This document shows, in pieces, positions 3,205 to 62,260 of a stretch of DNA of 64,000 bases. Location: the IMG/VR virus record IMGVR_UViG_3300026522_000001, positions 54,806 to 118,805 of that record; one strand, written 5' to 3'. Each line of letters opens with the position of its first letter. Within the stretch, counting starts at the first letter, position 1. The notes below the pieces were generated by a model. That model had not been told where the DNA came from. It saw only the letters and a list, made by a program, of their open reading frames with translations, and searched no databases. The DNA comes from a virus. Made by a program: the position numbers and the translations under genes.

Positions 3205-3468
3205 CTTTTTTCTTCCTTCCTAGATACAAAATAATTATCCCATATTATTATTTATTATTGATTGCTGTATGTATCTAAATAAATTAAAATTATATTATAA
3301 ATACTTTAGGTTATGAATACCAAAACAAATCAATACAATTCCTGAAATTAGAATAAGACTAACTAGCATTATATATCTCCAAAAAGCAATTTGCTTTAAC
3401 ATCTATTGGTTTCATCATTTTGACTACTTATGCTATCCACCACGTAAAGGTTGATGTTACTGGATAAC

Positions 3469-3549
3469 TGCCCCTGACAGGATTCGAACCTGCACGTCTT
3501 TCGACAACGGATTTTGAATCCGCACTGTCTTCCATTCCAGCACAAGGGC
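3469..3549 (-). tRNA. tRNA-Leu (anticodon CAA), class II
   Basis: Acceptor gcccttg/caggggc, anticodon arm gcgga-ttcaaaa-tccgt, long variable arm tgtcgaaagacgt, T arm gcagg-ttcgaat-cctgt. CCA is not encoded. Confidence 0.85.
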
Positions 3550-3640
3550 AATAATTGGTTTTTTCGTTTTTTCCTTAACGACCTAGCTTTTCAGATGCGT
3601 TTTAGTGCTGGCCAGTCACTTCAAGCATAGTCCTATCCGC

Positions 3641-3760
3641 TTGACACTCCCCATGCCTAAAGGCAGGGGATTCTTGGTTCAACGACCAGTGCACCGCTTC
3701 CAAGGAATTGGTGTCTTACATGATTTCCCCAAGCGTGAATTCCCGTGTGTCCCACGGTAT
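3641..3760 (-). ncRNA. orphan TnpB omega-RNA-like scaffold, copy A
   Basis: 120 nt, about 85% identical to 59985-60104 with compensatory changes. It shares the blocks tgtaagac / gtgca.t / gttga.accaa.a / ggagt.tgtcaa with the 3' UTR of tnpB-2. It begins at the predicted TSS of a consensus promoter and ends in hairpin + TCAA. Confidence 0.6.
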
Positions 3761-3766
3761 GTTTAT

Positions 3767-3795
3767 ATTATAACACACCCTAAAACACATGTCAA
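3767..3795 (-). promoter_or_regulatory. consensus promoter for ncRNA copy A and tRNA-Leu
   Basis: Minus strand reads TTGACA tgtgttttagggtgtgt TATAAT. The predicted TSS falls on ...ATACCGTGGG, the first conserved bases of the repeat. Confidence 0.65.
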
Positions 3796-4120
3796 CACCT
3801 TTTCTGAAAAATTTTGACGAAAATTGAAAAATATATTCTGACCTCGTAGAAGCCGTTCTGAGAGTATTTTTCCCTCTATGAGTATAAATATACCTAAAAA
3901 TGCTTGGGAGCCCCTTAGTGGGCATCCTTCGAAACGACACAGGGTTTTATATTTATATTCTTTTCTCCAACCTGCACAAAAATAAAAATATTGGCCAAAA
4001 AATGAATTTTATATATATAGTGAAATTTTTCACAAGCTATACACTATTTTTTTAGGAGAGGGAGACAGCTAAAGGTAGTTCCCCTCATGGTATACATTTT
4101 ACACATTTGTCCATTTCGTC

Positions 4121-4305
4121 TTATATTATATATTATTATATTATATATACGAACGTAGTGAGTATATTTAATATATAATATATAATATAATATATATAAA
4201 AAATAATATAATAAATATATATATATAAATAATAAAATATTATATATGCTATATATATTATATTATATATACTCACTACGTTCGTATATATAATATAATA
4301 TATAT
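4121..4305. repeat. large inverted repeat flanking a pure A/T spacer
   Basis: Perfect 25-bp arms atatatacgaacgtagtgagtatat (4143-4167) and atatactcactacgttcgtatatat (4267-4291), extended by imperfect TA-rich pairing. The ~100-bp spacer contains only A/T. Confidence 0.8.
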
Positions 4306-4635
4306 AGGGCAAAATAAGCACCTGTCTTTTAGAGAAAGACAAATTATAAAGACTACTTTTTAGCTAAAAATTAGACTAAAGTCCTATTTACTATTTAGAC
4401 AAAATACTTTATAATATATAAAATAATAAAAATAAATAAAAAATAATAATATTTTATCTAAACAGAGCATATAATATTTAGATAAAAATAAATATAAAAT
4501 AATCTTAAATAATAAATTTAATATTAATTTTTATAAATAAAATATAATAATAAATTCTAAATAATTATTATATGTTTAGATTAACATAAATATAAGAATT
4601 TAATAAAAGTTTAATAAAATAAATTAAAATTTCTA

Positions 4636-5423: not shown

Positions 5424-6217
5424 TAGAAAAAGAAAAATTACTATCAGATAAACTAAATACACATACATTCTCTTTTAGAACAACTCAAGATAAAATGTTT
5501 TTAGTAGTTTTATCTGATATACACATGGGAGCTTGTAATAGAGAATATCTTAGAGAAATTATCTCTTTTATTCTTAGTATTAAAAACTGTTATGTTATCT
5601 TAGGTGGAGATGCTACAAATAGTACAACTACTACTTCTAAAGGAAATGTTTTAGAAGAACAATTATCAGGTGATAAACAGATTTATGCTATTGTAGAAGA
5701 TTTAAAGCCATTAGTAGAAAACAATAGATTAATTGCTATTGGTGAAACAGGAAATCATGGTAATAGAATTTATGATAATTCTTATATAAGCATCAATAAG
5801 ATGATTGCTGTTTTGCTAGGTGTTCCTAAACTATATAAGGGAAATGCTCTTTTTGGATTTATCAATGTAAATAATATTTGTTATACAATATCAGTAATTC
5901 ATAAAAACAGAAAAGCAAAAAATTATTATGAATATGCTAGATGTGATATTCTTTATAAAGAACATTGGCATGAACTTAGATATGAACAAAAACTTGTTTA
6001 TGAATGGAATAAATATAATAAGTCACTAAGTGTTATTCCAACATTTGAAATTTATAATGGTTCTTTTTTGAATTTTCCTGAATATAGCTTGAAAGCTAAT
6101 TATAGACCACAGTTTATTGGAACATACTTTACTCTTTTAGACGGTAAAAAGAGATATATTCAACCATTTATAGATAAAGATTTATATTACATTATCAATA
6201 ATGGGTTTAAGGCTTAA
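5420..6217 (+). CDS. calcineurin-like metallophosphoesterase
   Basis: Motifs LSDIHMG (DxH), ILGGDATN (GD) and GNHGNR (GNH). Confidence 0.65.
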   Translation: MIEKEKLLSDKLNTHTFSFRTTQDKMFLVVLSDIHMGACNREYLREIISFILSIKNCYVILGGDATNSTTTTSKGNVLEEQLSGDKQIYAIVEDLKPLVENNRLIAIGETGNHGNRIYDNSYISINKMIAVLLGVPKLYKGNALFGFINVNNICYTISVIHKNRKAKNYYEYARCDILYKEHWHELRYEQKLVYEWNKYNKSLSVIPTFEIYNGSFLNFPEYSLKANYRPQFIGTYFTLLDGKKRYIQPFIDKDLYYIINNGFKA

Positions 6218-6229
6218 AGGGGAAAATAA

Positions 6230-6514
6230 ATGAGTGAATTAAGCATATCAGATAAGTTTTTAGATTTTCTAAAAAATAAAATTAATGAACATGTAGATAT
6301 TGTAAATAATTATTCTTATAACGAAGAAAAACTAAACAAGGCTTTAGAAAAATTACAAGTAGAAACAACTATTTATGCTAATCTTGTAACAATTTATACA
6401 AATTCAAAAACAAAAGAAATTACAGATGAAATTATTAATAGTATGAAAAATGTTGACGCTGATACTATCAATAATGCAATAAGTCAGTTTAGTAATTTTA
6501 CAGATAAGAATTAA
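6230..6514 (+). CDS. hypothetical protein
   Basis: ORF track. Co-directional, tightly packed, RBS GGGGAAAA upstream. Confidence 0.55.
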   Translation: MSELSISDKFLDFLKNKINEHVDIVNNYSYNEEKLNKALEKLQVETTIYANLVTIYTNSKTKEITDEIINSMKNVDADTINNAISQFSNFTDKN

Positions 6515-6528
6515 GACGGGGTAATTAT

Positions 6529-6981
6529 ATGAAGCCAATTAGAGAATTTAAGTCAGACGAAGAATTTCAAAAGATTGCTAAAGACCTACAGCATAAACTC
6601 TTTTTAGATGATTGGTTTATCATTTTTGGGCTTACAGATGAGCCAATTAAGATTTCTGAAGGATATGCTAGTGGATTAACACATTATGATTATGATAATA
6701 GAGAAGCTACAATTCTTGTTCTAAATAAAGATAATTGGGATTATTCACCAGAAGTAGCAGAGCATAAACCTGCTGTAACTAGGAATTGTGCCTTATTGAA
6801 TCTTCTACATGAATTATTGCATCTAAAGAGAGAGTATATAGTTCCTTCTGATATTCTTGGAAATGAAGCAGATGAATTATCTGAAATGGAAAGAGAAGAA
6901 GTTCATGTAAATCTTGAAAAGATGGCAAAAACACTTTTCATGGCACTAACAGGAACTAATACAGATTATTTTCTAAAATAA
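6529..6981 (+). CDS. hypothetical protein with HExxH motif (possible metallopeptidase)
   Basis: LLHELLHLKRE contains HExxH. RBS GACGGGG upstream. Confidence 0.5.
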   Translation: MKPIREFKSDEEFQKIAKDLQHKLFLDDWFIIFGLTDEPIKISEGYASGLTHYDYDNREATILVLNKDNWDYSPEVAEHKPAVTRNCALLNLLHELLHLKREYIVPSDILGNEADELSEMEREEVHVNLEKMAKTLFMALTGTNTDYFLK

Positions 6982-7006
6982 AAAGAATAAAGGAGTTTTC
7001 TATTAT

Positions 7007-7690
7007 ATGAGAAAACAAGACAATGATTATATAGACTTAAAGAATATGAAAGAAAGAGATAGAATATTCCTAAAGTTCAATAAAGAACAAAAAGAAATGT
7101 TTAAGTCTATACAAGATAATATATTCACATTTGTAGAAGCAAAGTCAGGAACAGGAAAGACATTAGTCTCTATTTCTGCTATGATTGACCTTTTGGCAAA
7201 CGACGAAATTAATAAGATTGTGTATTTCCAAAAAGTAAGTGACAGATACCTAGAGCATGGATTTTTAGCGGGAAGTTTAGAAGAAAAAACAAATATGCTT
7301 TGGACTCCATTTTATGATGCAATGAATACTTTAGGATTTTTTGAAAGCACTATTCAACATCTTATTGATAAAGAAATTATTGTATTGACAACAGATAGTG
7401 TTCTTAGAGGAGTTAATTTAGAGAAGTGTGGTGTTATTGCAGATGAGTGTGAAAACTGTGACACAGAAACACTAAGGCTTATTTTTACAAGATGTCATGA
7501 TGATTGTCATATAGTAATGCTTGGTGATTCAATGCAAAAAGACAATGCACATAAAGATAATAAAGAGTTTGTTTACTATGGTGAATATCTTTCTAATCAA
7601 GAATTTGGTGATAGATGCAAACTAACTAAGAATTATAGAGGTAAATTCAGTAAGTGTGCAGAAGATTTTATTTATAATTTTAAAGAATGA
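7007..7690 (+). CDS. phoH: PhoH-like ATPase
   Basis: Walker A AKSGTGKTLV, GFLAGSLEEK (PhoH GFLPG-like), Walker B-like VIADECEN, and MLGDSMQKD (GDxxQ.D). Confidence 0.7.
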   Translation: MRKQDNDYIDLKNMKERDRIFLKFNKEQKEMFKSIQDNIFTFVEAKSGTGKTLVSISAMIDLLANDEINKIVYFQKVSDRYLEHGFLAGSLEEKTNMLWTPFYDAMNTLGFFESTIQHLIDKEIIVLTTDSVLRGVNLEKCGVIADECENCDTETLRLIFTRCHDDCHIVMLGDSMQKDNAHKDNKEFVYYGEYLSNQEFGDRCKLTKNYRGKFSKCAEDFIYNFKE

Positions 7691-7704
7691 GATAAATATA
7701 ATAT

Positions 7705-7875
7705 ATGACATATACTAAATTAAAAAAAAATACTATTGATTCAGTCCTTGCAAATAATGCAATAACTGATAAATCTAGCAAAATTAGTCAATATATTAAG
7801 TTAATGGAAGATTTTAGTAATAAATATGAAATTTACTTTTTAACTGTTATGGATAGTGATGGTGATACACATTGA
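7705..7875 (+). CDS. hypothetical small protein
   Basis: 56-aa ORF filling the gap between neighbours, with a 4-nt overlap onto the next start. Confidence 0.35.
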   Translation: MTYTKLKKNTIDSVLANNAITDKSSKISQYIKLMEDFSNKYEIYFLTVMDSDGDTH

Positions 7876-8423
7876 GTACTGATAGTAGAGCTTTTTTTGA
7901 GCGAGAACTAAAGATTTTGGAGGATGAATCAGAAAAAGATGATAAGGCTATTTTTGATAAAACAGGCAAATATCCTTCTCCTTCTGCTTTGTCCGTCCAA
8001 AAGAAAGTTACAAATGCTATCTTAGAATTACATGATGTATTTGCTAAACAACATCATGATAATTTTAGTGCTAGTTATGTAATGGATTTATTTTATAAAC
8101 TTGTTCATTTTACACCTCTTTCGCCGCTTACTGGTAAAGATGAAGAATGGGAACCTGTAGATGGTATGGATAATACAGAATATAATACTAGATTTACTGG
8201 TATTAGTCGTACTAATAAAGATAATAGTACTGCTATTTGGAATGATGGTATTCTATTTTGTGAACCAAATAATAATAATTGGTTTGGGGCTAAAGAATCA
8301 AGAGTAAACGTATCATTTCCTTTTTCTGATTTTGCGCGAAAGCTATATGTGTTGAAATATAAATGTGAAGATAAACCTATTGCAGACCAGCTTAAAGATG
8401 GAGATTATGAGGTTGTGAATTAA
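7872..8423 (+). CDS. hypothetical protein
   Basis: ORF track (TTG start), co-directional packing. Confidence 0.55.
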   Translation: MSTDSRAFFERELKILEDESEKDDKAIFDKTGKYPSPSALSVQKKVTNAILELHDVFAKQHHDNFSASYVMDLFYKLVHFTPLSPLTGKDEEWEPVDGMDNTEYNTRFTGISRTNKDNSTAIWNDGILFCEPNNNNWFGAKESRVNVSFPFSDFARKLYVLKYKCEDKPIADQLKDGDYEVVN

Positions 8424-8502
8424 TGTCAGTATCCCTACATAAAAACATCAAATTATTATCTATGCGTAAAAATTATCTGTGTGAACTAAGAAAGGTGGTG
8501 TA

Positions 8503-8724
8503 GTGGCGATTCCTCCCACGGGCTTGCCCGTGGGTTTCCTCGCCACAGATATTATGACTTATCGTATTACATTCACAAACGGCGAAGTAAAAGAAGTAGA
8601 GAGCGTTACAGACATTGTTTTAGACAAGGACGGTATGTGTAAGGTTTCTGTTGAATGGACTGAATCGGCATATCTTATTTTTCCTAAGTCTAAGATTGAA
8701 CTAATTGAACTTATTGAAGCGTAA
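8503..8724 (+). CDS. hypothetical small protein (start uncertain: GTG 8503 or ATG 8548)
   Basis: ORF track. RBS AAAGGTGG lies before the GTG. The first 44 nt form a GC-rich hairpin. Confidence 0.45.
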   Translation: MAIPPTGLPVGFLATDIMTYRITFTNGEVKEVESVTDIVLDKDGMCKVSVEWTESAYLIFPKSKIELIELIEA

Positions 8725-8755
8725 ATAAACGAGAGGAAAGCAATTTCCTCTTTTT

Positions 8756-9232
8756 GTGCATATATATATGAAAACAAAAAAGACAAAAGAAATAGAAAAT
8801 TATTTATATCTGTTTTTACAGAGAAAAGGAACATTTTGTTGTCCAGAAGTAAAGATGGGTATGGGGAATACAGGTAAACATGGTATAGTAGACTATCTTA
8901 GTCTAACAACTAAAGGTATAGTTACCTGTTATGAAATAAAGGTAACTAAAGAAGATTTAGTTAATAGTAGTCATGGTCATAATTTTTATGGTAATTACAA
9001 TTTCTATGTTATTCCAATAGGATTGTATTCAAAAATTAAAGACTTTGTGCCAAAATATGTTGGTGTAATAGGCTTTGATATAGATGGTCATGCTAAATAC
9101 TTAAAAGAAGCAAAATTCCTTACTATAAGAAATCTTTCTAGTATTAAATTATACTTGATACGTTCTTTATATAGGGAATTTCAAAAAACGATGAATGATA
9201 AATTACATGTTGATAAAAATATAGAATTTTAG
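8756..9232 (+). CDS. PD-(D/E)XK nuclease, MmcB-like
   Basis: GIVDYLS...CYEIKVTKEDL gives a D...E-x-K pattern. The overall resemblance to the MmcB family is from memory. Confidence 0.45.
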   Translation: MHIYMKTKKTKEIENYLYLFLQRKGTFCCPEVKMGMGNTGKHGIVDYLSLTTKGIVTCYEIKVTKEDLVNSSHGHNFYGNYNFYVIPIGLYSKIKDFVPKYVGVIGFDIDGHAKYLKEAKFLTIRNLSSIKLYLIRSLYREFQKTMNDKLHVDKNIEF

Positions 9233-9244
9233 AGGTGTTATGTA

Positions 9245-9406
9245 TTGAAATCAATAAATGAAAAATACATGTACGCTAAACCAGTAAAAGTATTAGTTAA
9301 AAAATATAAAGTAGGTGGTGCTTATATCATAGAGTATGAAAATGGCAAAAAGGAAATAATTAGTGAAGAAGAACTATTTAGAAATTTTGAAACTAGATGG
9401 GAATAA
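9245..9406 (+). CDS. hypothetical small protein
   Basis: 53-aa ORF with a TTG start, 12 nt after AGAGGTG. Confidence 0.35.
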   Translation: MKSINEKYMYAKPVKVLVKKYKVGGAYIIEYENGKKEIISEEELFRNFETRWE

Positions 9407-9432
9407 TTTTATAATAAAGGAGAAAACTTATT

Positions 9433-9678
9433 ATGACTTGGCGCGGAGTACAAGGAAGAAAAAAGAAACTAGAAAAGCTATATAAAGAGTCTAATAGGCA
9501 TTATGGTGGGGCATATAAAGATAATGATGGAAGAATTAAACAATGTAGTTTTAGTAGAAATAGTGATATGCCAAAGTTCTATAAACGTAAAAGTAATAAG
9601 AAACTTAGACAAATGAAAGATGAAGAACTTCCTGATTCATACAAAAAAGCATATGACTATTGGTGGAATTTATATTGA
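9433..9678 (+). CDS. hypothetical basic protein
   Basis: ORF track. RBS AAAGGAGAA upstream. Confidence 0.55.
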   Translation: MTWRGVQGRKKKLEKLYKESNRHYGGAYKDNDGRIKQCSFSRNSDMPKFYKRKSNKKLRQMKDEELPDSYKKAYDYWWNLY

Positions 9679-9693
9679 GAAAAGGAGAACGCT

Positions 9694-9879
9694 TTGAATA
9701 AATATATAAAAAAGAAAAGAAAAGAAGTTATAGCTAACGAGAGGTATATAAAGTTTATCATCAAGCATCAAAATAAACTGCATAGAAGATATTATTCAAG
9801 TAATGTGCCTAAAAAATATAAAGTAGTTAATGTACTTAGAGCTAGAAAGCTGATGTATAAAAACACTTATAAGGATTGA
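9694..9879 (+). CDS. hypothetical basic protein
   Basis: ORF track. RBS AAAGGAGAA upstream. Confidence 0.5.
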   Translation: MNKYIKKKRKEVIANERYIKFIIKHQNKLHRRYYSSNVPKKYKVVNVLRARKLMYKNTYKD

Positions 9880-9904
9880 CAAATATAATTTTTTGTTATA
9901 TACT
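9876..9904 (+). promoter_or_regulatory. promoter of a candidate ~70-nt sRNA
   Basis: TTGACA aatataattttttgtta TATACT (17-nt spacer). Confidence 0.5.
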
Positions 9905-9910
9905 ATATAT

Positions 9911-9982
9911 AGTGGATTAAGTGGTGAATCTGAGGACGAACCACGAAGTCCTGCCTATCTACGGAGAAGCAGGGCTTTTTTT
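9911..9982 (+). ncRNA. candidate small RNA (promoter-to-terminator unit, no ORF)
   Basis: The predicted TSS is followed by hairpin gtggt..accac, then the terminator gtcctgc-N14-gcagggc-TTTTTTT (9948-9982). The next gene has its own promoter. Confidence 0.4.
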
Positions 9983-10056
9983 AGTGCAAAAAATTATTAA
10001 TGGCAATAAAAGCAGAGGAGGGGTGGACAAGTGGGGTAAAAAAATAAAAAAATGTA

Positions 10057-10085
10057 TTGACAAGTGGTCTGTGGTGTGGTATTAT
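10057..10085 (+). promoter_or_regulatory. sigma70-type promoter
   Basis: TTGACA agtggtctgtggtgtgg TATTAT. Confidence 0.55.
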
Positions 10086-10155
10086 AATAGTTGAAATAGG
10101 ACATGTTTGTGGTATGAATAAAATAAGCTAGTATAAATAAGAGGAGACATAAAAT

Positions 10156-10596
10156 ATGATTAAGTATTTTATTAATGAAGAAAAGAAAACAGTAGTTGCA
10201 AAGTTTGAAACCACTTCTGTACTTACAGATAAGGATGTATGGAAAAAATATATTGTTAATCATATTTTCAAGACAATCAGAAAAACAAAAAGTGGCATCG
10301 ATTTATACTTGGATGATAAAGATATTTATTATAAGTTTATTGAAGATGCTATTAAACAAAATGATTCATGCTATGGTATTGCAAAGTGTGCAGACACAGA
10401 TACATTTGATATTGAAAAAGGAAAAGAAATTGCTAAAAAGCGTTTGCTAAAGAAATATTATAATACACAAAAAAGAGCACTACTTAATATTATTCATGCT
10501 ATGAATAATGTTCAGCAGGTTCTTTTTAAGGATTATCATAAGTCTAAAAATAAGGCAGGAAAGGTTGCACAGGAAATTTACTGCTTTCAAAAATAA
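10156..10596 (+). CDS. hypothetical protein (paralog of 26862-27281)
   Basis: ORF track. It shares the N-terminus MIKY.xNxExKxVVAxF and the C-terminal IAKKRL pattern with the minus-strand ORF at 26862. Confidence 0.6.
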   Translation: MIKYFINEEKKTVVAKFETTSVLTDKDVWKKYIVNHIFKTIRKTKSGIDLYLDDKDIYYKFIEDAIKQNDSCYGIAKCADTDTFDIEKGKEIAKKRLLKKYYNTQKRALLNIIHAMNNVQQVLFKDYHKSKNKAGKVAQEIYCFQK

Positions 10597-43569: not shown

Positions 43570-43931
43570 CAACTTCAATTATTATTGAAGCTAGACTATA
43601 TCTTCACCCACGTTATTACGTTTGGTCTTATAGTGTGCAAATAACTATAAGAATGATACTATATATCATGTGTGAGGCACTTCGGATATATGAATTTCAC
43701 AAATATCCTACTCCCTGCCGGGATAGTCGTTTGACTTTTCTACATATTTTATATGTAAACTTAGCACTGGATTGTAATTATATTTAGAGGGTTACTAAAC
43801 TAATCATGTCCCCAGTCAGCATCTAAATTAGTCACCATTTCCTGTGATTACTATACGTTTTAGACACACCCTAGATTTCTAGGTTCACCTCATTACAATA
43901 TACTATTTCTAGTATATGGAGCGTTTTATTC
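43570..43931 (-). mobile_element. group I intron (IA2-like, no ORF) in polA motif B
   Basis: 5' splice site after ggT, 3' end ..gaagttG. It contains acgactatcccggcagggagtagg and gaagatatagtctagc, which match the T4 td-type cores AACGACTATCCC..GGGGAGTAGG and GAGATATAGTCTG. Confidence 0.75.
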
Positions 43932-45548
43932 ACCCAATACGATTGCTTTTGCTTTACTTCTTCTTTCTTTTCCTTCTTTATTTGTTGTTCCGTCATCATT
44001 AAACTCACAACAATCTTTGTATGGAACATTAAATGCAAGACTAGCTACATGAGAATAAATGTCTATGCCATCCCTAAACGCTTGAATCATCTTCTCATCA
44101 CCGGAAACTGCCGCACATACCGCAACTTCTTGTCTTGAGTAGTCACACAGAATCAAAACCTTATTATCACCTGCATAGAACATATTTCTTATATCGCCCA
44201 TGTGCGAGGGCAGTTGCTGGATGTTAATCTCACCACTACTAGATAATCTTCCAGTCCTTGTTCTAACACTATTAAAGTCTGGTCGAACTACATGATTCTT
44301 GTCTGATTCAGCCAAGTCAATAATTTTATTGATAAATGTTCCTAGTGCTTTATCATATTTCTTTACATCTACTAGTGCTCCTGCTATTTTCTTTAGCTGT
44401 GTATTTTCATATTTAGGACTAGTTAAGATTTTATCTAGTACATGCTTTCCTGTTCCATTAGGCTCTTTTTCAAAAATCACACCTGTGTTAATAATCTCAT
44501 AGAACAAGATTTTTATTTGAACAGGGCTATTATAGTTTATTGGATATTCTAGCTGTGTTCCTGCATGTTGCTTTATATAGAATTTTATTTTATCCTCTAG
44601 GGGAGATACAGCTTCATTGAATTTCTCTAATGCTTCTTTTTGTAGCTTCTCATATTTTTCTTTTAGCTTATATGCCATTTCAATATCAATTTGTATTCCA
44701 CGCCATTTCATATCAGCAAGAACTTCAATCAGAGGAAGTTCTTCTGTATGAAATACTTTTGAAACACCCTCTAAATGACATACCTTACATTCTTCTGTTC
44801 CTACTGTTAGATATGGTTTTTGGAATAGATATAGTTGTTCTGTCATTAAACAGTCATGTGCTGAATAATAATATCCAACTTTAGGATTAATTCTATTAAA
44901 AGGAATCCCATCAAATAGCTCAACAAACTTATGAACCCCTGCTTTACCTTCCATAACATATTTATCATATAGAACCTTCAAGCTATGTGGCTCATTTTCA
45001 TTTAACATTGCCGCCGCTACTAATGTATCCCAATATACACTAGGGAAATATCCCAAAACAGCTTTCAACACAATCAAGTCGTAGTAAGCATTATGAAATA
45101 CATATCTACAATGCTTTTTATTCATGATGTCAAAGCCTTGTTTTATGCTTTCTTTACTTACTTGATTGCTTAATGGTTGTTCTGTTATGCTACTGATATG
45201 ACCAACAGGTGCATAGGCTTCTGTTTGCCCAATACTCTTGATACATACACCTGCTAGTCCTTCTGTCTGGTCTTTGAATGATAACCCGCTTGTTTCTGTA
45301 TCAAGAGAAACAATATCGTTTTCATGGATATTATTACAATATTCATTCCATTTTTCATTACTGTCTAAAAGAATTGGATGATAATCACCAAGGTTTGTTT
45401 TTACATTCAACTCAATTTCTTTTAGCTTATTGATTAGTGTTCCTTTCTTTACAGAAATCTTTGACTTGTTACATTCTTCTTCTCTAATCTTTGCAATTAT
45501 ACGTGAAACATTAGGTGATTGTCTTTCTTGTAGTTTGAATAGCTCCAA
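43932..45548 (-). CDS. DNA polymerase I family (PolA), exon 1 with 3'-5' exonuclease domain
   Basis: Exo I VSLDTETSGL, Exo II FHNAYYDL, Exo III YYSAHDCL, motif A ILCDYSRQEV, then RRSKAKAIVLG| (first half of motif B). The likely TTG start at 45548 follows AAGGAGG. The longer track ORF overlaps the upstream gene. Confidence 0.8.
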
Positions 45549-53272: not shown

Positions 53273-53764
53273 TTACTCTGTTGTATTTACCCAAACATTA
53301 TTTATCTTTTTCCAAATGTTTTGGTTACTACTTCCTCTAAATTCTAGTGTTAAATCTCTTAACTCATCAACGTATCTACCATCAACAATAGTATCTACAT
53401 TGTCTAGTATTTCTTTACCGTACTTTAATCGTTTTACTTCTTCAAAGGTATACCCAGTATAAACCCAAATAATTATATCAGTTACACTCTTTCTGATTTC
53501 AATAATAGTTTGTAATACATCATATATATTCTCTTTTGCTAATGGTTCCCCGCCTAAAATAGATACCCTTTTAATAAATGGTCTATTTACAAGTTTCATA
53601 AACTTATTGCAAGTTTCCCTTGTAAATTCTTTACCACCATCAAAATCCCATGTAGATTTATTAAAACAGTTTTTACAATGGAAATGACACCCTTGTGTAA
53701 ATAATGCTACACCAATACCATTTCCATTTGATATATCCATATCTCTTATACTAGCATATCTCAT
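53273..53764 (-). CDS. nrdG: anaerobic ribonucleotide reductase activating protein NrdG
   Basis: Radical-SAM cluster GCHFHCKNCFN. Size and position directly after nrdD fit. Confidence 0.85.
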   Translation of the reverse strand: MRYASIRDMDISNGNGIGVALFTQGCHFHCKNCFNKSTWDFDGGKEFTRETCNKFMKLVNRPFIKRVSILGGEPLAKENIYDVLQTIIEIRKSVTDIIIWVYTGYTFEEVKRLKYGKEILDNVDTIVDGRYVDELRDLTLEFRGSSNQNIWKKINNVWVNTTE

Positions 53765-54080
53765 GGTTGTCTAAATGCACATACCTTTCTGCTATTTCTT
53801 CTGTACGTCCTTGATTGAAAAAGTTACTACTAATGTACCCACAGACCCTGCGCCTTATAATCATTTGACTATGGTCTTGATTACCGCAATTAGGACATTC
53901 CCAATCAAGTTTACCATCTTTATCAATAATTTTTATTTCGCCATCAAAACCACACTTACAACAATGGTCGCTCTTTGTATTTAACTCTGCATATAATATG
54001 GTATTATATATGTGTTTTATTATTGATAATACTGCGTCAATATTATTATTCACATCTGCACACTCAACATAGCTTATTGC
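53751..54080 (-). CDS. nrdD: anaerobic ribonucleotide reductase NrdD, exon 4
   Basis: Begins AISYVE. Zn ribbon CCKCG..CPNCG and glycyl-radical tail RRVCGY. Confidence 0.85.
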   Translation of the reverse strand, partial: AISYVECADVNNNIDAVLSIIKHIYNTILYAELNTKSDHCCKCGFDGEIKIIDKDGKLDWECPNCGNQDHSQMIIRRRVCGYISSNFFNQGRTEEIAERYVHLDNHEIC

Positions 54081-54832
54081 CAAAGTCCTTTACTTTTTAA
54101 TTTTTCTTCAACAATAGTTCTTAATTCTTGTTTCTTTGCTTGTGGTAAATCTAAAGTATATTCATATTTCCTAACTTGCTCTTCTTTATTAGCAAATTCT
54201 TTAAATAATAATTTTTCTGCATAATATCTTTTATATACCGCATTTTTTAATTCTTTTTCATAACCTAGATGACACCTTTTTTCTTGTAATCTTATTTCAG
54301 AATCATACCTATCATGGTATTTATCATACCTTACACCAATAAAATTTGATGTATTTCTTTTCATATATGATTTATTTAATACATTTTGCCCTTGTGTACA
54401 AATACGTAAATTACATTTTCTATTATCAAAAGCATTACAATTAATATGGTCTACTACATAACCACTATCAATTTGTTCTCTCGTAATTCCAATAATAATC
54501 CATGATAAATCTTTTTGTGTTCCTTTGCTTGGTAATCCTGTTACTACATGGTCATGACTTATTCTCCATTTATGATATTTTACTTTTTCAATATCATCAA
54601 AGTCAATAATAAACTCACCATTTTTTACATTCTTTTGATTATATAAATTAAACGTAACAGTATTTGTATCATAGTTTATTGTGTAATCATTTAGGTCTGA
54701 ATTTGTTCTTTGAATATTATCTAAGAATTTACCATATTTTAATAATTGATGCATGTGTTTACTGCATAAGCAATAACCATATAAACTAATTTTCTTTTTT
54801 AATTCTCTACCACAAATATCACATTTGTACAT
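54074..54832 (-). CDS. HNH-AP2 homing endonuclease (intron-encoded)
   Basis: VVDHINCNAFDNRKCNLRICTQGQNVLN (HNH) and FIGVRYDKYHDRYDSEIRLQEKRCHLGY (AP2 domain). The stop overlaps the 3' splice site by 7 nt. Confidence 0.8.
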   Translation of the reverse strand: MYKCDICGRELKKKISLYGYCLCSKHMHQLLKYGKFLDNIQRTNSDLNDYTINYDTNTVTFNLYNQKNVKNGEFIIDFDDIEKVKYHKWRISHDHVVTGLPSKGTQKDLSWIIIGITREQIDSGYVVDHINCNAFDNRKCNLRICTQGQNVLNKSYMKRNTSNFIGVRYDKYHDRYDSEIRLQEKRCHLGYEKELKNAVYKRYYAEKLLFKEFANKEEQVRKYEYTLDLPQAKKQELRTIVEEKLKSKGLWQ

Positions 54833-55067
54833 ATTTTAACCTCCGACTATATCTTAGAGTAACGGGAAATCACCGCTTTACTCCATCTGCGCTTCAACAT
54901 AGTGCTTATCTCTATGCTTACATAATAGTCTGTACACCTTCTATATAAAATAGCTTGGCACGGTATTTCCTCATTCGTGTCTACCGTTAGCACATAAATA
55001 ATTATGCACACCCTTTAGCAAGGTTCACAGATTTTAGGGTGGCTTTTCGGCTATATTGATTGTCCAA
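54081..55067 (-). mobile_element. group I intron 3 of nrdD carrying an HNH-AP2 endonuclease gene
   Basis: 5' splice site after ggtggT, omega-G at 54081. The ribozyme core (..ctctaagatatagtcgg..) lies upstream of the ORF. Confidence 0.7.
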
Positions 55068-55755
55068 ACCACCCGGACTTAGGGATTGATATTTAGCTTC
55101 ATTTGTTAATTTTGTAAATGGGTCTACTTTATCACGTACAAAATAATGATAACTATTTGTTATATAATCTCTATCTGTTATTCCTTCTATAACACCAAAT
55201 CTACGTTTTAATGCAAGTGCAAATTTATATGTACCTGTTTCCATTGGTGTTCCATATAGTGAATAATCTATATCTTCCTCTTTCTTCCATTGACTACATT
55301 TATCATTTAGAGCTTGCATTACTTTCATGCCAAACTCTGTTCCTTCTGCACCGTCCATATGAGATTTACCTGTCATATATTTAACACATTCATATAAACC
55401 TGCATATCCTAATGAACATGTAGCATATCCACCTTTAAATAGCTTACCTATTTTCTCACCATGTTTTAGACGTGCTAATGCTCCGTCCATCCACATGATA
55501 GGTGCTTCATCTGCTACTGTATCTTTTATATGGTTTATACGTTCTTTATGTGCTTTGTGACATAACTCTGCACGTTCATCAAAAATCTTCCAAAACTGTT
55601 CAAAATCACCTTCTGATGATAATGCTATATCAACTAAGTTTAATGTGACTACACCTAAATTAAACCTACCATAATATTTCTTACCGTTCACCCAATTATT
55701 TGCGTTTGCAATATTTGTTTGTGTTCTATCTGGTGTTAGGAACGAGCGACAACCC
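55068..55755 (-). CDS. nrdD: NrdD, exon 3
   Basis: Begins (M)GCRSFLTPD and ends ..YQSLSPGG. The frame joins exons 2 and 4 exactly. Confidence 0.85.
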
Positions 55756-56063
55756 CTCTTTGTTCATAGTAGTTCGCAACACTACTACAGTTCTCTTATG
55801 AACTTCTATATATCACTATATAGAACAGACTATATCTATATGTTGATAAAAACATAGCTACTATTTCGTTTTAAGTGGTATTACGTGTCCGCAATCACAA
55901 CCACACCTCATTAGCTTAGGCACTACGATTAAAAATCTAGTCGTTTGGCATTTATCAGTTTATATAAGCTGATATTTAGCACAGGATTGACTTATAATAA
56001 GTTATCCCCTGTTTAAGTAGCTTATTCATTTAGTTCTCACAAACTAAAGGCACTAATTTGTCA
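55756..56063 (-). mobile_element. group I intron 2 of nrdD (IA2-like, no ORF)
   Basis: Contains aaacaggggataac..aatcctgtgctaaat, gccaaacgactag and agatatagtctgttc, matching the td-type P3/P7 elements. It ends ..aacaaagaG. Confidence 0.75.
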
Positions 56064-56563
56064 ATGCACGGATATACGTCACCCTTTAATTTTTTCATTA
56101 TCTTAGCTGATATATAATCTGGAACCATTCTTTTTGCAGTACATTTTGCCGCAAGCTCTGTTAGATAATAATATTTGCTATCTTCATGTATATTGTTTTC
56201 ATCTAAACAATACAGTAGCTTTGGAAATGCTTGTGTTATGTAGTGTCCATCACGATTTTTCATTCCTTGAATACGTTGTTTTAAAAATTCTTCAATTAAC
56301 ATAGCAACTTCTTCTGTATATTCTGTATCTTCATTTAAATACATAAATACACTGACAAAAGGACTCTGTCCATTGACATTACTCATGCTATTTATTTGAT
56401 AATTGAATGTTTGTACTGCATCTTCTATTTCTTTATGCAAATCTTCTTTTGCATATTTTTCACAATCTTCTTTATTAAATCCTCTATTTTTATACTTATC
56501 TAAAAATCTATTATAACTACTTCTTACAAATGGTGCTAAATGTGTTAATGTTATTGTAGTTCC
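56064..56563 (-). CDS. nrdD: NrdD, exon 2
   Basis: Begins GTTITLTHLAPFV and ends ..GDVYPC + AT. The codon ATG is completed by the first G of exon 3. Confidence 0.85.
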
Positions 56564-57728
56564 CAAATGCTATATAAGTCTGTATTCTACATATAGCTTA
56601 GACTATTTCTTATTACTATTTGTGTTTAGTAATCAGTATGTTTCAGATTTTGCTACCAAAACCTTACAATTAGTCGTTACAATTATTCTATAATTTTAAT
56701 ATCATGTTTTTCAGCTTCGTCAAGCCATCTTCTAGCTTGTGTTTCTGATTTATCAATAAATCTTGCAAATGCTGATACCGTATGAAATTCATATGTTCCT
56801 TTATATATGAAATGTTTATACTTTCTATTTTTAACTCCTACTCTTACTTTTTTCCTATGTAAAACCTCATAAGCATGTTTATTATTTTCTGACTGGCTAA
56901 CCCACTCTAAATTATTAGCATTATTATTTGTTTTATCTCCATCAATATGATTTACAGTATTTCTTTCTTCTGAATATCCATCACAAAAAGCATGTGCAAC
57001 AATTCTAGCTAATTGAAGTGTCTTACCTTTGATATATATATAATATCTCCCAGTATATTTATTATAATCATTAGTGAGTAAAATATATTTATCATATGTT
57101 TTTATATAATGTTTTACTCTACCATAATTAGATACATAATAGTCATCATAACCTAAAATTTGTTTCCAAGTTTCATTTTCAAATTCTTCAAAATCATAGT
57201 TATTACTACTATCATTAATCATTTTATTTACTGCTTCTTTGTGCTTTTTGTGAATCCTAGCTACATAATCATTTTTTGCTTTTTCTAAAACCTTATCATA
57301 ATAAAAAATAGTTCTTAATGTTTCTTTTGAACAATGTAACTCTTTAGCTATATCTGCTAATGATATATCATTGTCTAATCTACTTTTTATTAACTGCTTA
57401 TTCTTATTGTAAAACTTTTCTGTTGATGGATTCATATATCTATGTGGTTCAGCTTTTGGTAATTTCCAAATATCATTTATATACATAATCAATGTTTTTC
57501 TGTTTAATTCTAATAAACGTGCTATATACGATTTTGTTCTACCCTCTTTTGAGTATAATTGATAAATTGTATTTTTTAACATTTCATATTTATTTTCCAT
57601 TAGGCATTTCCAACCTTTCATTATAGAATAATCACGAGATTAGCTTTTCCAACCTGCCTCGTTAGCCGTGTATTTAATACGCAACCCTGTTGTGACAGTT
57701 AATACTGTTTTACTACGGCAGAATTTAG
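56564..57728 (-). mobile_element. group I intron 1 of nrdD carrying an HNH endonuclease gene
   Basis: 5' splice site after tacggT, omega-G at 56564. The 3' core is aagaaatagtctaagc. Confidence 0.7.
56683..57621 (-). CDS. HNH homing endonuclease with NUMOD4 and HTH modules (intron-encoded)
   Basis: YYVSNYGRVKH (NUMOD4), NHIDGDKTNNNANNLEWVSQSENNKHA (HNH), and N- and C-terminal HTH-like segments. Confidence 0.8.
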   Translation of the reverse strand: MKGWKCLMENKYEMLKNTIYQLYSKEGRTKSYIARLLELNRKTLIMYINDIWKLPKAEPHRYMNPSTEKFYNKNKQLIKSRLDNDISLADIAKELHCSKETLRTIFYYDKVLEKAKNDYVARIHKKHKEAVNKMINDSSNNYDFEEFENETWKQILGYDDYYVSNYGRVKHYIKTYDKYILLTNDYNKYTGRYYIYIKGKTLQLARIVAHAFCDGYSEERNTVNHIDGDKTNNNANNLEWVSQSENNKHAYEVLHRKKVRVGVKNRKYKHFIYKGTYEFHTVSAFARFIDKSETQARRWLDEAEKHDIKIIE

Positions 57729-58388
57729 ACCGTAGCTGGAAGATGTAACTGCGGTTATGATTTGTGTGACAATCGTAGTAGCAGTTGTCAACATGTGTGG
57801 TTTATCAATATGTACGCCATTTATATTTGTACCATAGTTTAACATATCTTCAAGATTAATTAATTCACAATTTGTTAAATGCTGAATTGCATAATCTAAA
57901 TCGTGTATCTTAATAATAGCTTCTTTATCTGCTTGGACTACATCTGGTGTAAATATATATTTCTTAGATAATGCTTTTGACATTACACCTGCCATATAGT
58001 CTCTTTTTGTAGTTACTAGTTCTGAATTTTTGTTTGAATTTTCTGTTGTCCAATATTCATCATCATTACCTAGCATACTCATGATTTGCTTTTCTGATTC
58101 ATTGTCTATGTTACGTTGATATTCTCTTACTGCTCTATAACCTTCATAACTTTTTGCAGTATTTTTATGACCATGCTTAACAAGCAAATTAAATACATCT
58201 GTTTCTATTTCACTTATATTTATTGGCATATTTTCATTTACATGTTTTATGTAAATTTCTTCTCCTATTTTATGTGCAACAGTTTCAGAAATTTTACCAC
58301 TCATATTCATAGCTTTTTTAATGGCATTATATATCTTATCTCTATTAAATGGAACAATACTACCATCACGTTTTTTTACAGAAAGCAT
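57729..58388 (-). CDS. nrdD: NrdD, exon 1 (ATP-cone + N-terminal core)
   Basis: MLSVKKRDGSIVPFNRDKIYNAIKKA (ATP-cone). It ends ..TQIITAVTSSSYG, joining to GTTITL (conserved SQYGG region). Confidence 0.85.
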
Positions 58389-61995: not shown

Positions 61996-62260
61996 CTCTA
62001 ACTTTAACCTTCTTTAGGAGGTCTAGTTCATTACAAGTCGCTACACTCGTAACAGTTCTCTTATGAACTTCCTATCATTTCTGATAGGCACAGACTATAT
62101 CTTATCCATATCATATCTCTATGACTTAGGCGAAACCACTTCCATAGCCAATAGCTTGCTATGTACTTCCCTCAAGAGGAATAGTCGTTGAAGTTTCCCC
62201 TATTCGGGGCTTACCTGCTGATTACCAATTTTTGAAATAGGAATTAGGATTTAACCTTGT
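61996..62260 (-). ncRNA. group I intron 3' core-like sequence (IA2 type), bounds approximate
   Basis: agatatagtctgtgcc + covarying hairpin + gaagttcataagagaactgt, identical 20-mer to nrdD intron 2. caacgactattcctcttgagggaagta lies at 62164-62190. Confidence 0.6.

What the first reader, a model, noticed from the sequence alone, without database searches (positions are those of the whole stretch)
53751..58388. nrdD broken into four exons by three group I introns (two with HNH genes, one ORF-less)
Seen in sequence: conserved NrdD peptides are restored in frame only at these junctions.
- ..VTSSSYG|GTTITL.. : exon 1 ends 57729, exon 2 starts 56563.
- ..DVYPC(M)|GCRSFL.. : the split codon AT|G, at 56064 / 55755.
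- ..LSPGG|AISYVE.. : 55068 / 54080.

Each 5' exon ends in U and each intron ends in G. Each intron contains a td-like GATATAGTCTG/AATAGTCTA core. Intron 3's HNH-AP2 ORF runs 7 nt past the 3' splice site.

Established knowledge: T4 nrdD (sunY) has a single group I intron.

Inference: together with polA, the tRNA and the tnpB-associated element, this window has at least 6 intron-type insertions in 64 kb. That is an unusually high density.
Basis: partly seen in the sequence, partly recalled or inferred. Interest (0 to 1): 0.62.

Follow-up and report, generated by a model that had tools for sequence, protein, structure and literature searches.

The report
Three self-splicing introns in phage nrdD
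The anaerobic ribonucleotide reductase gene of this uncultured 119-kb phage is cut into four pieces by three group I (self-splicing) introns, two of which carry homing-endonuclease genes; this is a clean, well-supported example of a known kind of selfish element, not a new kind.

Summary
It matches NrdD end to end and aligns without gaps across all three junctions to intron-less relatives.

All three inserts are group I introns:
- Each has a P1 helix with a U·G pair at the 5' splice site, a terminal G, the P3/P7 pseudoknot, P8 and the J8/7 consensus.
- Each has orthologues at the identical nrdD position in other phages. On those alignments 94-96% of the cells form standard pairs, against 28-47% in the slid controls. 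There are 18-27 compensatory pairs, against 0-6.
- Only intron 2 reaches the Rfam Intron_gpI cut-off (50.3 bits).

None of the three sites is the T4 sunY site. Relatives of this gene carry introns at eight or more different sites, and one relative has four.

In intron 3 the HNH gene lies 3' of the ribozyme core. It reads through the 3' splice site and stops in exon 4. A 10-15-bp P10-like pairing starts directly after the stop codon. Both features are conserved in the two orthologues.

Multi-intron nrdD is already published for jumbo gut phages, so this is a new member of a known kind. Earlier notes of this scan cover this genome's tRNA intron and IStron, not nrdD.

The parts
57729..58388 (-). 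nrdD exon 1 (aa 1-220; ATP-cone and the N-terminal part of the NRDD domain); ends ...SSSYG, last base U
56564..57728 (-). Intron 1, 1165 nt, group I. P1 is exon CUACGGU (57735-57729) paired with the guide sequence GCCGUAG (57719-57713), with U.G at the splice site. P10 is UUCU/GGAA. P3 is CAGUAU/AUACUG. A 14-bp P6 stem closes the ORF loop. Also present: P7 GACUA/UAGUC, P7.2, P8, P9 and a terminal G.
   Evidence: orthologues at the same codon in Lactococcus phage P1048 and in IMG/VR record G001
56683..57621 (-). Intron 1 homing-endonuclease ORF (NUMOD4 + HNH_3 + HTH), looped out of P6. The likely real start is the ATG at 57600, which is preceded by AAGGUUGGA and matches the N-termini of the orthologues.
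   Evidence: orthologue ORFs
56064..56563 (-). nrdD exon 2 (aa 221-387, first two bases of the Met387 codon)
55756..56063 (-). Intron 2, 308 nt, no ORF, IA2-like group I intron. P1 is GCAU|UGA paired with UUAGUGC (56056-56050), with U.G at the splice site. It also has P2, P3, P4-P6, P7, P7.1/7.2, P8, P9 (GUGA loop), P9.1 and P9.2. It sits one codon upstream of the catalytic Cys (T4 C290) codon.
   Evidence: RF00028 50.3 bits; fold z = -2.8; covariation; similar to Twort, Staphylococcus and Bacillus phage introns
55068..55755 (-). nrdD exon 3 (third base of the Met387 codon, then aa 388-616); ends ...LSPGG, last base U
54081..55067 (-). Intron 3, 987 nt, group I. The ribozyme core occupies the first ~228 nt (55067-54840). 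P1 is exon GGGUGGU (55074-55068) paired with GCCACCC (55043-55037). P3 is AUCUGUG/CGCAGAU. There are two extra hairpins, then P4/P5, P6, P7 GACUA/UAGUC, P7.1/7.2 and P8. The intron ends in G.
   Evidence: orthologues at the same site in L255 and L260
54074..54832 (-). Intron 3 HNH endonuclease ORF (252 aa). The Shine-Dalgarno GGAGG directly follows the P7 3' strand. The ORF crosses the 3' splice site (54081|54080), and its stop codon UAA is exon 4 nt +5..+7.
   Evidence: same arrangement in L255 (7 nt) and L260 (8 nt)
55050..55059 (-). P1-loop strand UCAAUAUAGC of intron 3, which pairs with exon 4 (an offset P10)
   Evidence: 10 bp here and in L255, 15 bp in L260, with compensatory changes; shuffled exons reach this length in 3/2000, 6/2000 and 0/2000 trials
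54064..54073 (-). Exon 4 nt +8..+17 (GCUAUGUUGA), partner of the intron 3 P1 loop; it begins directly after the endonuclease stop codon
53751..54080 (-). nrdD exon 4 (aa 617-725; Zn-Cys cluster and glycyl-radical motif RRVCGY)
53273..53764 (-). nrdG (activase), overlapping the nrdD stop codon. Context only: it shows that the operon is otherwise intact.
   Evidence: Fer4_12 1e-40, Radical_SAM

Best explanation
nrdD is transcribed from the minus strand as one precursor. It contains three group I ribozyme introns of 1165, 308 and 987 nt.

**Splicing (inferred from the family mechanism).**
- Each intron pairs its internal guide sequence with the last bases of the upstream exon. This P1 helix has a U·G wobble at the cleavage site.
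- Free guanosine bound in P7 attacks the 5' splice site.
- The intron's terminal G then enters the same site, and the exons are ligated.
- The result is a 2178-nt ORF for a complete 725-aa class III ribonucleotide reductase.

**Homing (inferred).** Introns 1 and 3 each encode an HNH homing endonuclease. In mixed infections it would cut intron-less nrdD alleles and copy the intron in. Intron 2 has lost its endonuclease gene. Its orthologue in L257 still has an ORF in the P6 loop.

**Intron 3 architecture (shown).**
- It resembles the T4 sunY intron: the ribozyme core is at the 5' end and the endonuclease gene fills the remaining ~760 nt.
- The remote 3' splice site is probably positioned by a 10-bp pairing between the P1 loop and exon 4 nt +8..+17.

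**Shown versus inferred.**
- Shown: the junctions, the helices, their covariation, orthologues at the same sites, and empty sites in relatives.
- Inferred: that splicing and homing actually occur.
For: **The spliced product is a full NrdD.**
- Pfam NRDD 1-562/562 and PDB 9d3x/1h78.
- Gap-free junction alignment to intron-less relatives.

**Unspliced RNA cannot make the protein.** In-frame stops follow each 5' splice site within 9-22 codons.

**Intron 2.**
- RF00028 scores 50.3 bits against a cut-off of 50.
- 381 phage records share sequence with it. They include Twort and a record annotated Intron_gpI.
- With three orthologues at the same site, 65 pairs are 95.6% paired, against 28-42% when slid. 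27 pairs are compensatory, against 1-3.

**Intron 1.**
- Orthologues lie at the same SSxxG|G codon in Lactococcus phage P1048 and in G001.
- The P1 guide sequence covaries with the exon: CUACGGU/GCCGUAG, AUUCGGU/GCCGAAU and AUACGGU/GCCGUAU.
- P10 covaries too: UUCU/GGAA here, AAACU/GGUUU in P1048.
- 74 pairs are 94.9% paired, against 31-47% when slid. 21 are compensatory, against 1-6.

**Intron 3.**
- Orthologues lie at the same SPGG|A site in L255 and L260.
- 64 pairs are 94.2% paired, against 31-47% when slid. 18 are compensatory, against 0-2.
- The 7-bp P3 covaries in 12 sequence variants across the wider family, even where it spans 740-1170 nt of ORF.
- P7 covaries: GACUA/UAGUC, GACCA/UGGUC and GAGCA/UGCUC.
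- Family member L244 scores 62.5 bits on RF00028.
- The offset P10 is 10-15 bp long and has compensatory changes.

**Empty sites exist.** The 81 IMG/VR loci aligned, and the closest relative found (L252, 76% aa identity in its best segment), have no insert at these three positions.
Against:
- The default Rfam cmscan found no Intron_gpI in the region even at E<=10. The T4 sunY control scored 105 bits.
- Introns 1 and 3 never reach the RF00028 cut-off, even in the run that found intron 2.
- Introns 1 and 3 have two extra hairpins between the P3 5' strand and J3/4. The Rfam consensus lacks these and I could not name them.
- P4 of intron 1 (CGAG/CUCG) is invariant in its three sequences, so it has no covariation support.
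- The intron 3 P10 starts 7 nt downstream of the splice site, not at +1. Any P9.0 pairing is weak.
- The orthologue alignments have only 3-4 sequences each.
Confidence: 0.9

Rival explanations
1. Split or dead gene. The inserts are endonuclease cassettes that broke nrdD. The four pieces are either translated separately and assemble, as in Aeromonas phage Aeh1 nrdA split by mobE, or the gene is a pseudogene.
For: the ORF listing can start exons 2 and 4 at TTG codons. Split but functional phage RNR genes are documented (PMC3653736).
Against: - The breaks fall inside invariant motifs, and one falls inside a codon (AT|G).
- No Shine-Dalgarno sequence precedes the exon 2-4 fragments.
- All four exons are free of stops and frameshifts and keep the catalytic Cys, the Zn cysteines and the radical Gly.
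- The inserts fold into covarying ribozyme helices whose guide sequences track the exon sequence.
- Intron 2 has no ORF at all.
Confidence: 0.04
2. The inserts are real group I introns, but one is not autonomous. The most likely candidate is intron 3, with its remote 3' splice site. It would splice only with a helper, such as its own protein acting as a maturase or ribosome movement, or it would splice inefficiently so that NrdD output is throttled.
For: - About 760 nt of ORF separate the intron 3 core from its 3' splice site.
- P10 is offset and I found no P9 helix.
- RF00028 does not score intron 3.
- In jumbo gut phages, read mapping supported splicing for only 37 of 76 predicted introns, and one nrdD gap showed no spliced reads (PMC12880540).
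Against: - The same architecture is kept in three diverged orthologues, 70-75% nt identity, with intact exons.
- The long P1-loop/exon pairing covaries.
- From my own knowledge, T4 sunY has a similar layout and self-splices. The layout itself is shown.
Confidence: 0.1
3. The inserts are inteins or group II introns.
For: Both occur in phage RNR genes (PMC3653736).
Against: - In-frame stops follow every 5' junction, so there is no protein-level read-through.
- Pfam finds no Hint/intein domain and no reverse transcriptase in the insert ORFs.
- The boundaries and helices are those of group I introns.
Confidence: 0.01

Closest known systems
T4 nrdD (sunY) group I intron with I-TevII
   Same: - Same host gene.
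- IA2-type core with P7.1/P7.2.
- As in intron 3, the endonuclease ORF lies 3' of the ribozyme core and runs almost to the 3' splice site.
   Different: - Different insertion site: about aa 274 of this protein, against 220, 387 and 616 here.
- GIY-YIG endonuclease, not HNH.
- One intron, not three.
- The T4 core scores 105 bits on RF00028. Introns 1 and 3 do not score.
- Whether the T4 ORF stops before the splice site I did not check to the base.
nrdD of jumbo gut (Jug) phages, split into up to four fragments by group I introns and endonuclease genes (PMC12880540)
   Same: Gut-phage nrdD in four fragments; HNH genes in the gaps; splicing there is backed by metatranscriptome reads.
   Different: - A different phage group: 360-402 kb Bacteroides phages, against a 119-kb genome with terminal repeats.
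- I could not compare insertion sites or intron sequences, because those genomes were not at hand.
Staphylococcus phage Twort orf142 (three introns) and nrdE (two introns); Brochothrix phage A9 nrdE (three introns plus an intein)
   Same: Several group I introns in one phage gene, inserted at conserved catalytic motifs. Intron 2 shares sequence with the Twort orf142 record AF132670 (PMC3653736).
   Different: Other genes and hosts. Those introns were shown to splice, which these have not been.
Unannotated intron in nrdD of Lactococcus phage P1048 (MN552145)
   Same: Orthologue of intron 1: same codon (SSxxG|G), 66% nt identity over the ribozyme and the NUMOD4-HNH ORF.
   Different: The host NrdD proteins are only ~27% identical, so the intron has moved between distant nrdD genes. 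GenBank annotates the pieces as separate CDSs.
Group A IStrons (CdISt1-type; PMC4227781)
   Same: Ribozyme core at the 5' end, a long protein-coding cargo, and the 3' splice site at the far end. One sits in this same window (note e1-3488890).
   Different: The cargo here is an HNH homing endonuclease, not an IS200/IS605 transposase/TnpB. There are no transposon ends.

Membership tests
Group I intron | P1: the internal guide sequence pairs with the end of the 5' exon, with a U.G wobble at the splice site | tested here: met
   All three introns meet it. The guide sequence covaries with the exon in the orthologues of intron 1 and intron 3 (A-U for G-C at the first pair). The U.G pair is invariant in 4/4 site-2 introns.
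Group I intron | The intron ends in G (omega-G) | tested here: met
Group I intron | Conserved core in canonical order (P3, P4-P6, P7, P3', P8, J8/7, P7') with the P3/P7 pseudoknot | tested here: met
   - Covariation counts: 94-96% paired, against 28-47% when slid.
- P3 covaries in 12 variants.
- P7 covaries in the wider intron 3 family.
- Caveat: introns 1 and 3 carry two extra hairpins between P3 and J3/4.
Group I intron | J8/7-P7 consensus (GAUAUAGUC-like), part of the guanosine-binding region | tested here: met
   GAWATAGTC is found in each intron; 5 matches against 1.27 expected.
Group I intron | Score at or above the Rfam RF00028 gathering threshold (50 bits) | tested here: inconclusive
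   - Intron 2 scores 50.3 bits, but only with the genome search filters. The default cmscan missed it.
- Introns 1 and 3 get no hit at E<=10.
- Control T4 sunY scores 105 bits.
- L244, a member of the intron 3 family, scores 62.5 bits.
- The long ORFs and the extra hairpins are not in the model.
Group I intron | Guanosine-initiated self-splicing | not testable with these tools
Subgroup IA2 (T4/Twort type) | P7.1 and P7.2 between P7 and P3', with an extended P9, P9.1 and P9.2 | tested here: met
   - Intron 2 has all of them, with covariation in P9, P9.1 and P9.2.
- Introns 1 and 3 have P7.1/P7.2. P7.2 covaries.
- Intron 3 lacks a recognisable P9 domain.
HNH homing endonuclease | HNH catalytic motif (Pfam HNH_3) | tested here: met
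   - Intron 1 ORF: HNH_3 3.7e-8 plus NUMOD4.
- Intron 3 ORF: HNH_3 2.2e-6.
- PHROG HNH families at 1e-25 to 1e-30.
HNH homing endonuclease | Cleaves the intron-less allele at or near the insertion site | not testable with these tools
   Indirect support only. The same intron sits at the same site in distant nrdD genes, and empty sites occur in close relatives.
Class III ribonucleotide reductase NrdD | Full-length NRDD domain, catalytic Cys (T4 C290), C-terminal Zn-Cys cluster and glycyl-radical motif | tested here: met
   - MGCRSF aligns to T4 C290, and RRVCGY aligns to the radical-Gly position, which is Ala in the T4 crystal form.
- nrdG lies next to it.

The most novel reading that the evidence does not exclude
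**Proposal.** Intron 3 and its two orthologues carry a built-in switch between endonuclease expression and splicing.

**What is shown.**
- The HNH ORF starts at a Shine-Dalgarno sequence fused to the P7 3' strand.
- It reads through the 3' splice site and can only terminate at a stop codon supplied by exon 4.
- That stop abuts or overlaps (by 2 nt in L260) the 10-15-bp exon strand that pairs with the P1 loop.

**What would follow.**
- A ribosome finishing the endonuclease would melt the pairing that docks the 3' exon.
- A folded, splicing-competent RNA would hide the ribosome-binding site.
- An excised intron would lack a stop codon.
- So the endonuclease would be made only from unspliced precursor, and translation would transiently block NrdD mRNA maturation.
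Probability: 0.25. Interest if true: 0.55.

Novelty: new member of a known kind. Interest (0 to 1): 0.4.

Why it matters
**Annotation.** Gene callers will report nrdD here as four fragments plus two 'hypothetical' or HNH genes. GenBank already does this for Lactococcus phage P1048. The correct product is one 725-aa enzyme.

**Biology.**
- In this clade of gut and rumen phages nrdD is an intron hot-spot. I saw at least eight insertion sites, all in conserved motifs, and two different intron families targeting positions 5 nt apart next to the catalytic Cys codon.
- Intron 1 sits at the same codon in nrdD genes that are only ~27% identical. That is a clear case of intron transfer between distant phages.

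**Ribozyme detection.** The intron 1 and intron 3 families escape the standard Rfam model. Intron counts in phage metagenomes based on that model are therefore likely to be underestimates.

**A testable detail.** The endonuclease ORF that crosses the 3' splice site, followed by an offset P10, gives a small system for studying how translation and splicing compete on one RNA.

Tried and rejected
**Searches that led nowhere**
- The default Rfam cmscan, at the gathering threshold and at E<=10, found no intron here. The T4 control showed that the model works, so I turned to the genome search and to comparative analysis.
- Megablast of the locus against 50,697 phage records found nothing.
- A single-protein search of IMG/VR gave one locus.
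- A strict intron 1 pattern found only P1048.
- A 14-mer pattern gave mostly chance hits but did yield G001.

**Structural readings I dropped**
- For intron 1 I first read ACAGU/ACUGU as P2 and CUGUC/GGCAG as P4. The P1048 and G001 orthologues break both. They support P3 = CAGUAU/AUACUG, two hairpins, then UAA-P4 (CGAG/CUCG).
- For intron 3 I first considered P3 = UGUGC/GCGCA. Family covariation shows P3 = AUCUGUG/CGCAGAU.
- A MAFFT alignment of nine divergent family members misaligned the 3' half. I replaced it with orthologue-only alignments and a motif-anchored P3 table.

**Other**
- The AP2 domain of the intron 3 protein is not supported.
- A literature search for named 'P3.1/P3.2' elements found nothing relevant.

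Full report
**What is there.**
- The window is the right-hand 64 kb of a 118,805-bp IMG/VR virus record with direct terminal repeats.
- On the minus strand, four ORF fragments with NrdD-like sequence lie between 58388 and 53751. Two HNH ORFs lie between them.
- The product covers Pfam NRDD 1-562/562 (E 7e-166), with an N-terminal ATP-cone and a C-terminal glycine-radical domain.
- It aligns with solved NrdD structures over its whole length: 9d3x at 3-721 against 16-724, and T4 1h78 at 99-718 against 4-604.
- nrdG and thyX follow directly.

**The junctions are exact.**
- Intron-less relatives with 57% aa identity (Enterocloster phage CB457P2 and MT835469), together with other relatives, align without a single gap across the three joints. 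The motifs are SSQYG|GQTITL, YPCM|GCRSFL and SPGG|AISY.
- Junction 3 had one alternative, a shift of one base, that also obeys the U/G rule.
- Each 5' exon ends in U and each intron ends in G.
- Reading on from each 5' splice site meets a stop within 9-22 codons. Unspliced RNA therefore cannot give the enzyme.

**Are they group I introns?**
- The default Rfam scan said no, both at the gathering threshold over the whole window and at E<=10 over the locus. The T4 sunY intron, run as a control, scored 105 bits.
- A run with other filters scored intron 2 at 50.3 bits against a cut-off of 50. It also scored two further introns in the window, but not introns 1 and 3.
- I therefore mapped the helices by hand and looked for relatives to test them.

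*Intron 2 (308 nt, no ORF).*
- It shows P1 (GCAU|UGA with UUAGUGC, U·G at the splice site), P2, P3, P4-P6, P7, P7.1/7.2 and P8.
- It also shows P9 with a GUGA loop, then P9.1 and P9.2. This is the T4/Twort IA2 layout.
- It shares sequence with introns in 381 phage records. They include Twort orf142 and a record annotated Intron_gpI.
- Metagenome contigs L256, L257 and L260 carry introns at the identical position, AT|G. Two have no ORF and one has an ORF in the P6 loop.
- On the four-sequence alignment, RNAalifold recovers the group I helices.
- With P7 added, 95.6% of cells pair, against 28-42% when partners are slid. 27 pairs show compensatory changes, against 1-3.

*Intron 1 (1165 nt).*
- It has one full-length relative among GenBank phages. 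That relative lies in nrdD of Lactococcus phage P1048 at the same SSxxG|G codon, where the pieces are annotated as separate genes.
- A second relative lies in IMG/VR record G001.
- The guide sequence tracks the exon: CUACGGU/GCCGUAG, AUUCGGU/GCCGAAU and AUACGGU/GCCGUAU.
- P10 tracks the 3' exon: UUCU/GGAA here and AAACU/GGUUU in P1048.
- P3, P7.2, P8, P9 and the long P6 stem that closes the ORF loop all change in a compensatory way.
- Counts: 94.9% paired, against 31-47% when slid; 21 compensatory pairs, against 1-6.

*Intron 3 (987 nt).*
- Orthologues lie at the same SPGG|A position in contigs L255 (987 nt, 75% identity) and L260 (994 nt, 70% identity).
- Counts: 94.2% paired, against 31-47% when slid; 18 compensatory pairs, against 0-2.
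- Its core belongs to a large family found with an 18-base pattern. The pattern gave 36 IMG/VR stretches, a few of which are GC-rich chance matches.
- In that family the 7-bp P3 occurs in 12 different complementary versions. The 3' strand always lies directly after an AAG motif, even when 740-1170 nt of ORF intervene.
- P7 appears as GACUA/UAGUC, GACCA/UGGUC or GAGCA/UGCUC.
- One family member, L244, scores 62.5 bits on RF00028.

**Two features not in the Rfam consensus.**
- Introns 1 and 3 both have two extra hairpins between the 5' strand of P3 and the UAA that precedes P4. The second hairpin shows compensatory changes in both families. The first is only weakly supported.
- In the L244 hit, the Rfam model treats this stretch as an unaligned insert. 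This probably explains the missing scores. I found no name for these hairpins.

**Intron 3 architecture.**
- The ribozyme core is the first ~228 nt. The HNH ORF begins at a GGAGG that directly follows the P7 3' strand and fills the rest of the intron.
- The ORF crosses the 3' splice site and stops at UAA in exon 4, at nt +5..+7.
- L255 and L260 do the same, with 7 and 8 nt of overlap. L260 uses a different stop (UAG) made from a different synonymous exon sequence.
- From nt +8 here and in L255, directly after the stop, and from +7 in L260, overlapping its stop by 2 nt, the exon pairs with the P1 loop. The pairing is 10 bp here and in L255, with U·G replaced by C-G, and 15 bp in L260.
- Shuffled exons reach these lengths in 3, 6 and 0 of 2000 trials.
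- This is a long, offset P10. It is the likely means of bringing a splice site ~760 nt away into the core.
- T4 sunY has the same order, with the core first and the ORF running almost to the 3' end.

**Comparison of sites.**
- The T4 intron lies at about aa 274 of this protein, not at 220, 387 or 616.
- None of the 81 IMG/VR nrdD loci aligned has an insert at these three sites. Nine have one at aa 697/698, in the glycyl-radical motif.
- Other relatives have inserts at about aa 174, ~285-298 and 419.
- G001 and L259 have one 4-5 nt downstream of site 2, from the intron 3-like family.
- L260 has four introns.
- The closest relative found is L252, with 76% identity in its best segment. It lacks all three introns and has a different one.
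- Site 2 is one codon before the catalytic Cys, T4 C290 in the numbering of the alignment.

**What is known.**
- nrdD is the RNR gene most often found split in phages, and Brochothrix phage A9 nrdE has three introns and an intein (PMC3653736).
- Jumbo gut phages average 18.5 group I introns per genome. Their nrdD is split into up to four fragments, with read support for splicing at some gaps (PMC12880540).
- The present case is therefore a new member of a known kind. The ORF that crosses the splice site, followed by the offset P10, is the only part I did not find described. I searched only open-access text.

**Limits.**
- The orthologue alignments have three or four sequences each.
- P4 of intron 1 has no covariation.
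- The AP2 domain claimed for the intron 3 protein was not found.

Noticed in passing
window 43573-43932 (-): The polA gene is interrupted in its motif-B region (...KAIVLG|ILYSKG...) by an ORF-less group I intron of about 360 nt. It belongs to the same family as nrdD intron 3: GUGAACCUAGAAAUCUAGGGUGU, P3 UGAGGUG/UGCCUCA and GAAGAUAUAGUC. RF00028 did not score it.
   Followed up: partly
L093 (Lactococcus phage P1048, MN552145) 2472-3697: This cultured lactococcal phage has an unannotated group I intron with a NUMOD4-HNH gene in nrdD. GenBank lists exon 1, the endonuclease and exon 2 as three separate CDSs.
   Followed up: yes
L260 (ERZ808278 NODE-14) 6001-10504: This nrdD has four inserts, at about aa 284, 387, 617 and 697, giving five exons. 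That is one more insert than in the window.
   Followed up: partly
L225 (IMGVR_UViG_3300035522_000076) 171-2908: Three RF00028 hits above the cut-off (117, 80 and 73 bits) and a fourth, intron 3-like core lie within 3.4 kb. I did not identify the host gene.
   Followed up: no
L214 reverse complement 3580-4408 (G001); L259 6673-7677: A second intron family, intron 3-like, is inserted 4-5 nt downstream of the intron 2 site (ATGGGT(T)|(T)GT against AT|GGGTTGT). Two unrelated introns therefore target adjacent positions at the catalytic Cys codon of nrdD.
   Followed up: partly
window 55020-54975 (intron 3) and 57683-57649 (intron 1); alignments A4 and A5: Both intron families have two extra hairpins between the P3 5' strand and the UAA that precedes P4. 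The second hairpin shows compensatory changes. RF00028 has no positions for either hairpin, and I could not find them named in the literature I searched.
   Followed up: partly
L016, L024, L029, L041, L043-L045, L087, L090; Enterocloster phages CB473P1, CB473P3 and CB457P1: An insert of 220-960 nt recurs at aa 697/698, inside the glycyl-radical motif (RxCG|Y) of nrdD. It is absent from the window's gene. The Enterocloster phage hits stop at aa 697, which suggests the same insert.
   Followed up: partly
window 62038-62102 (-): The P8-P9 part of nrdD intron 2 is 81% identical over 64 nt to the ribozyme of the IStron in this window. The intron families within this genome therefore share sequence.
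   Followed up: no
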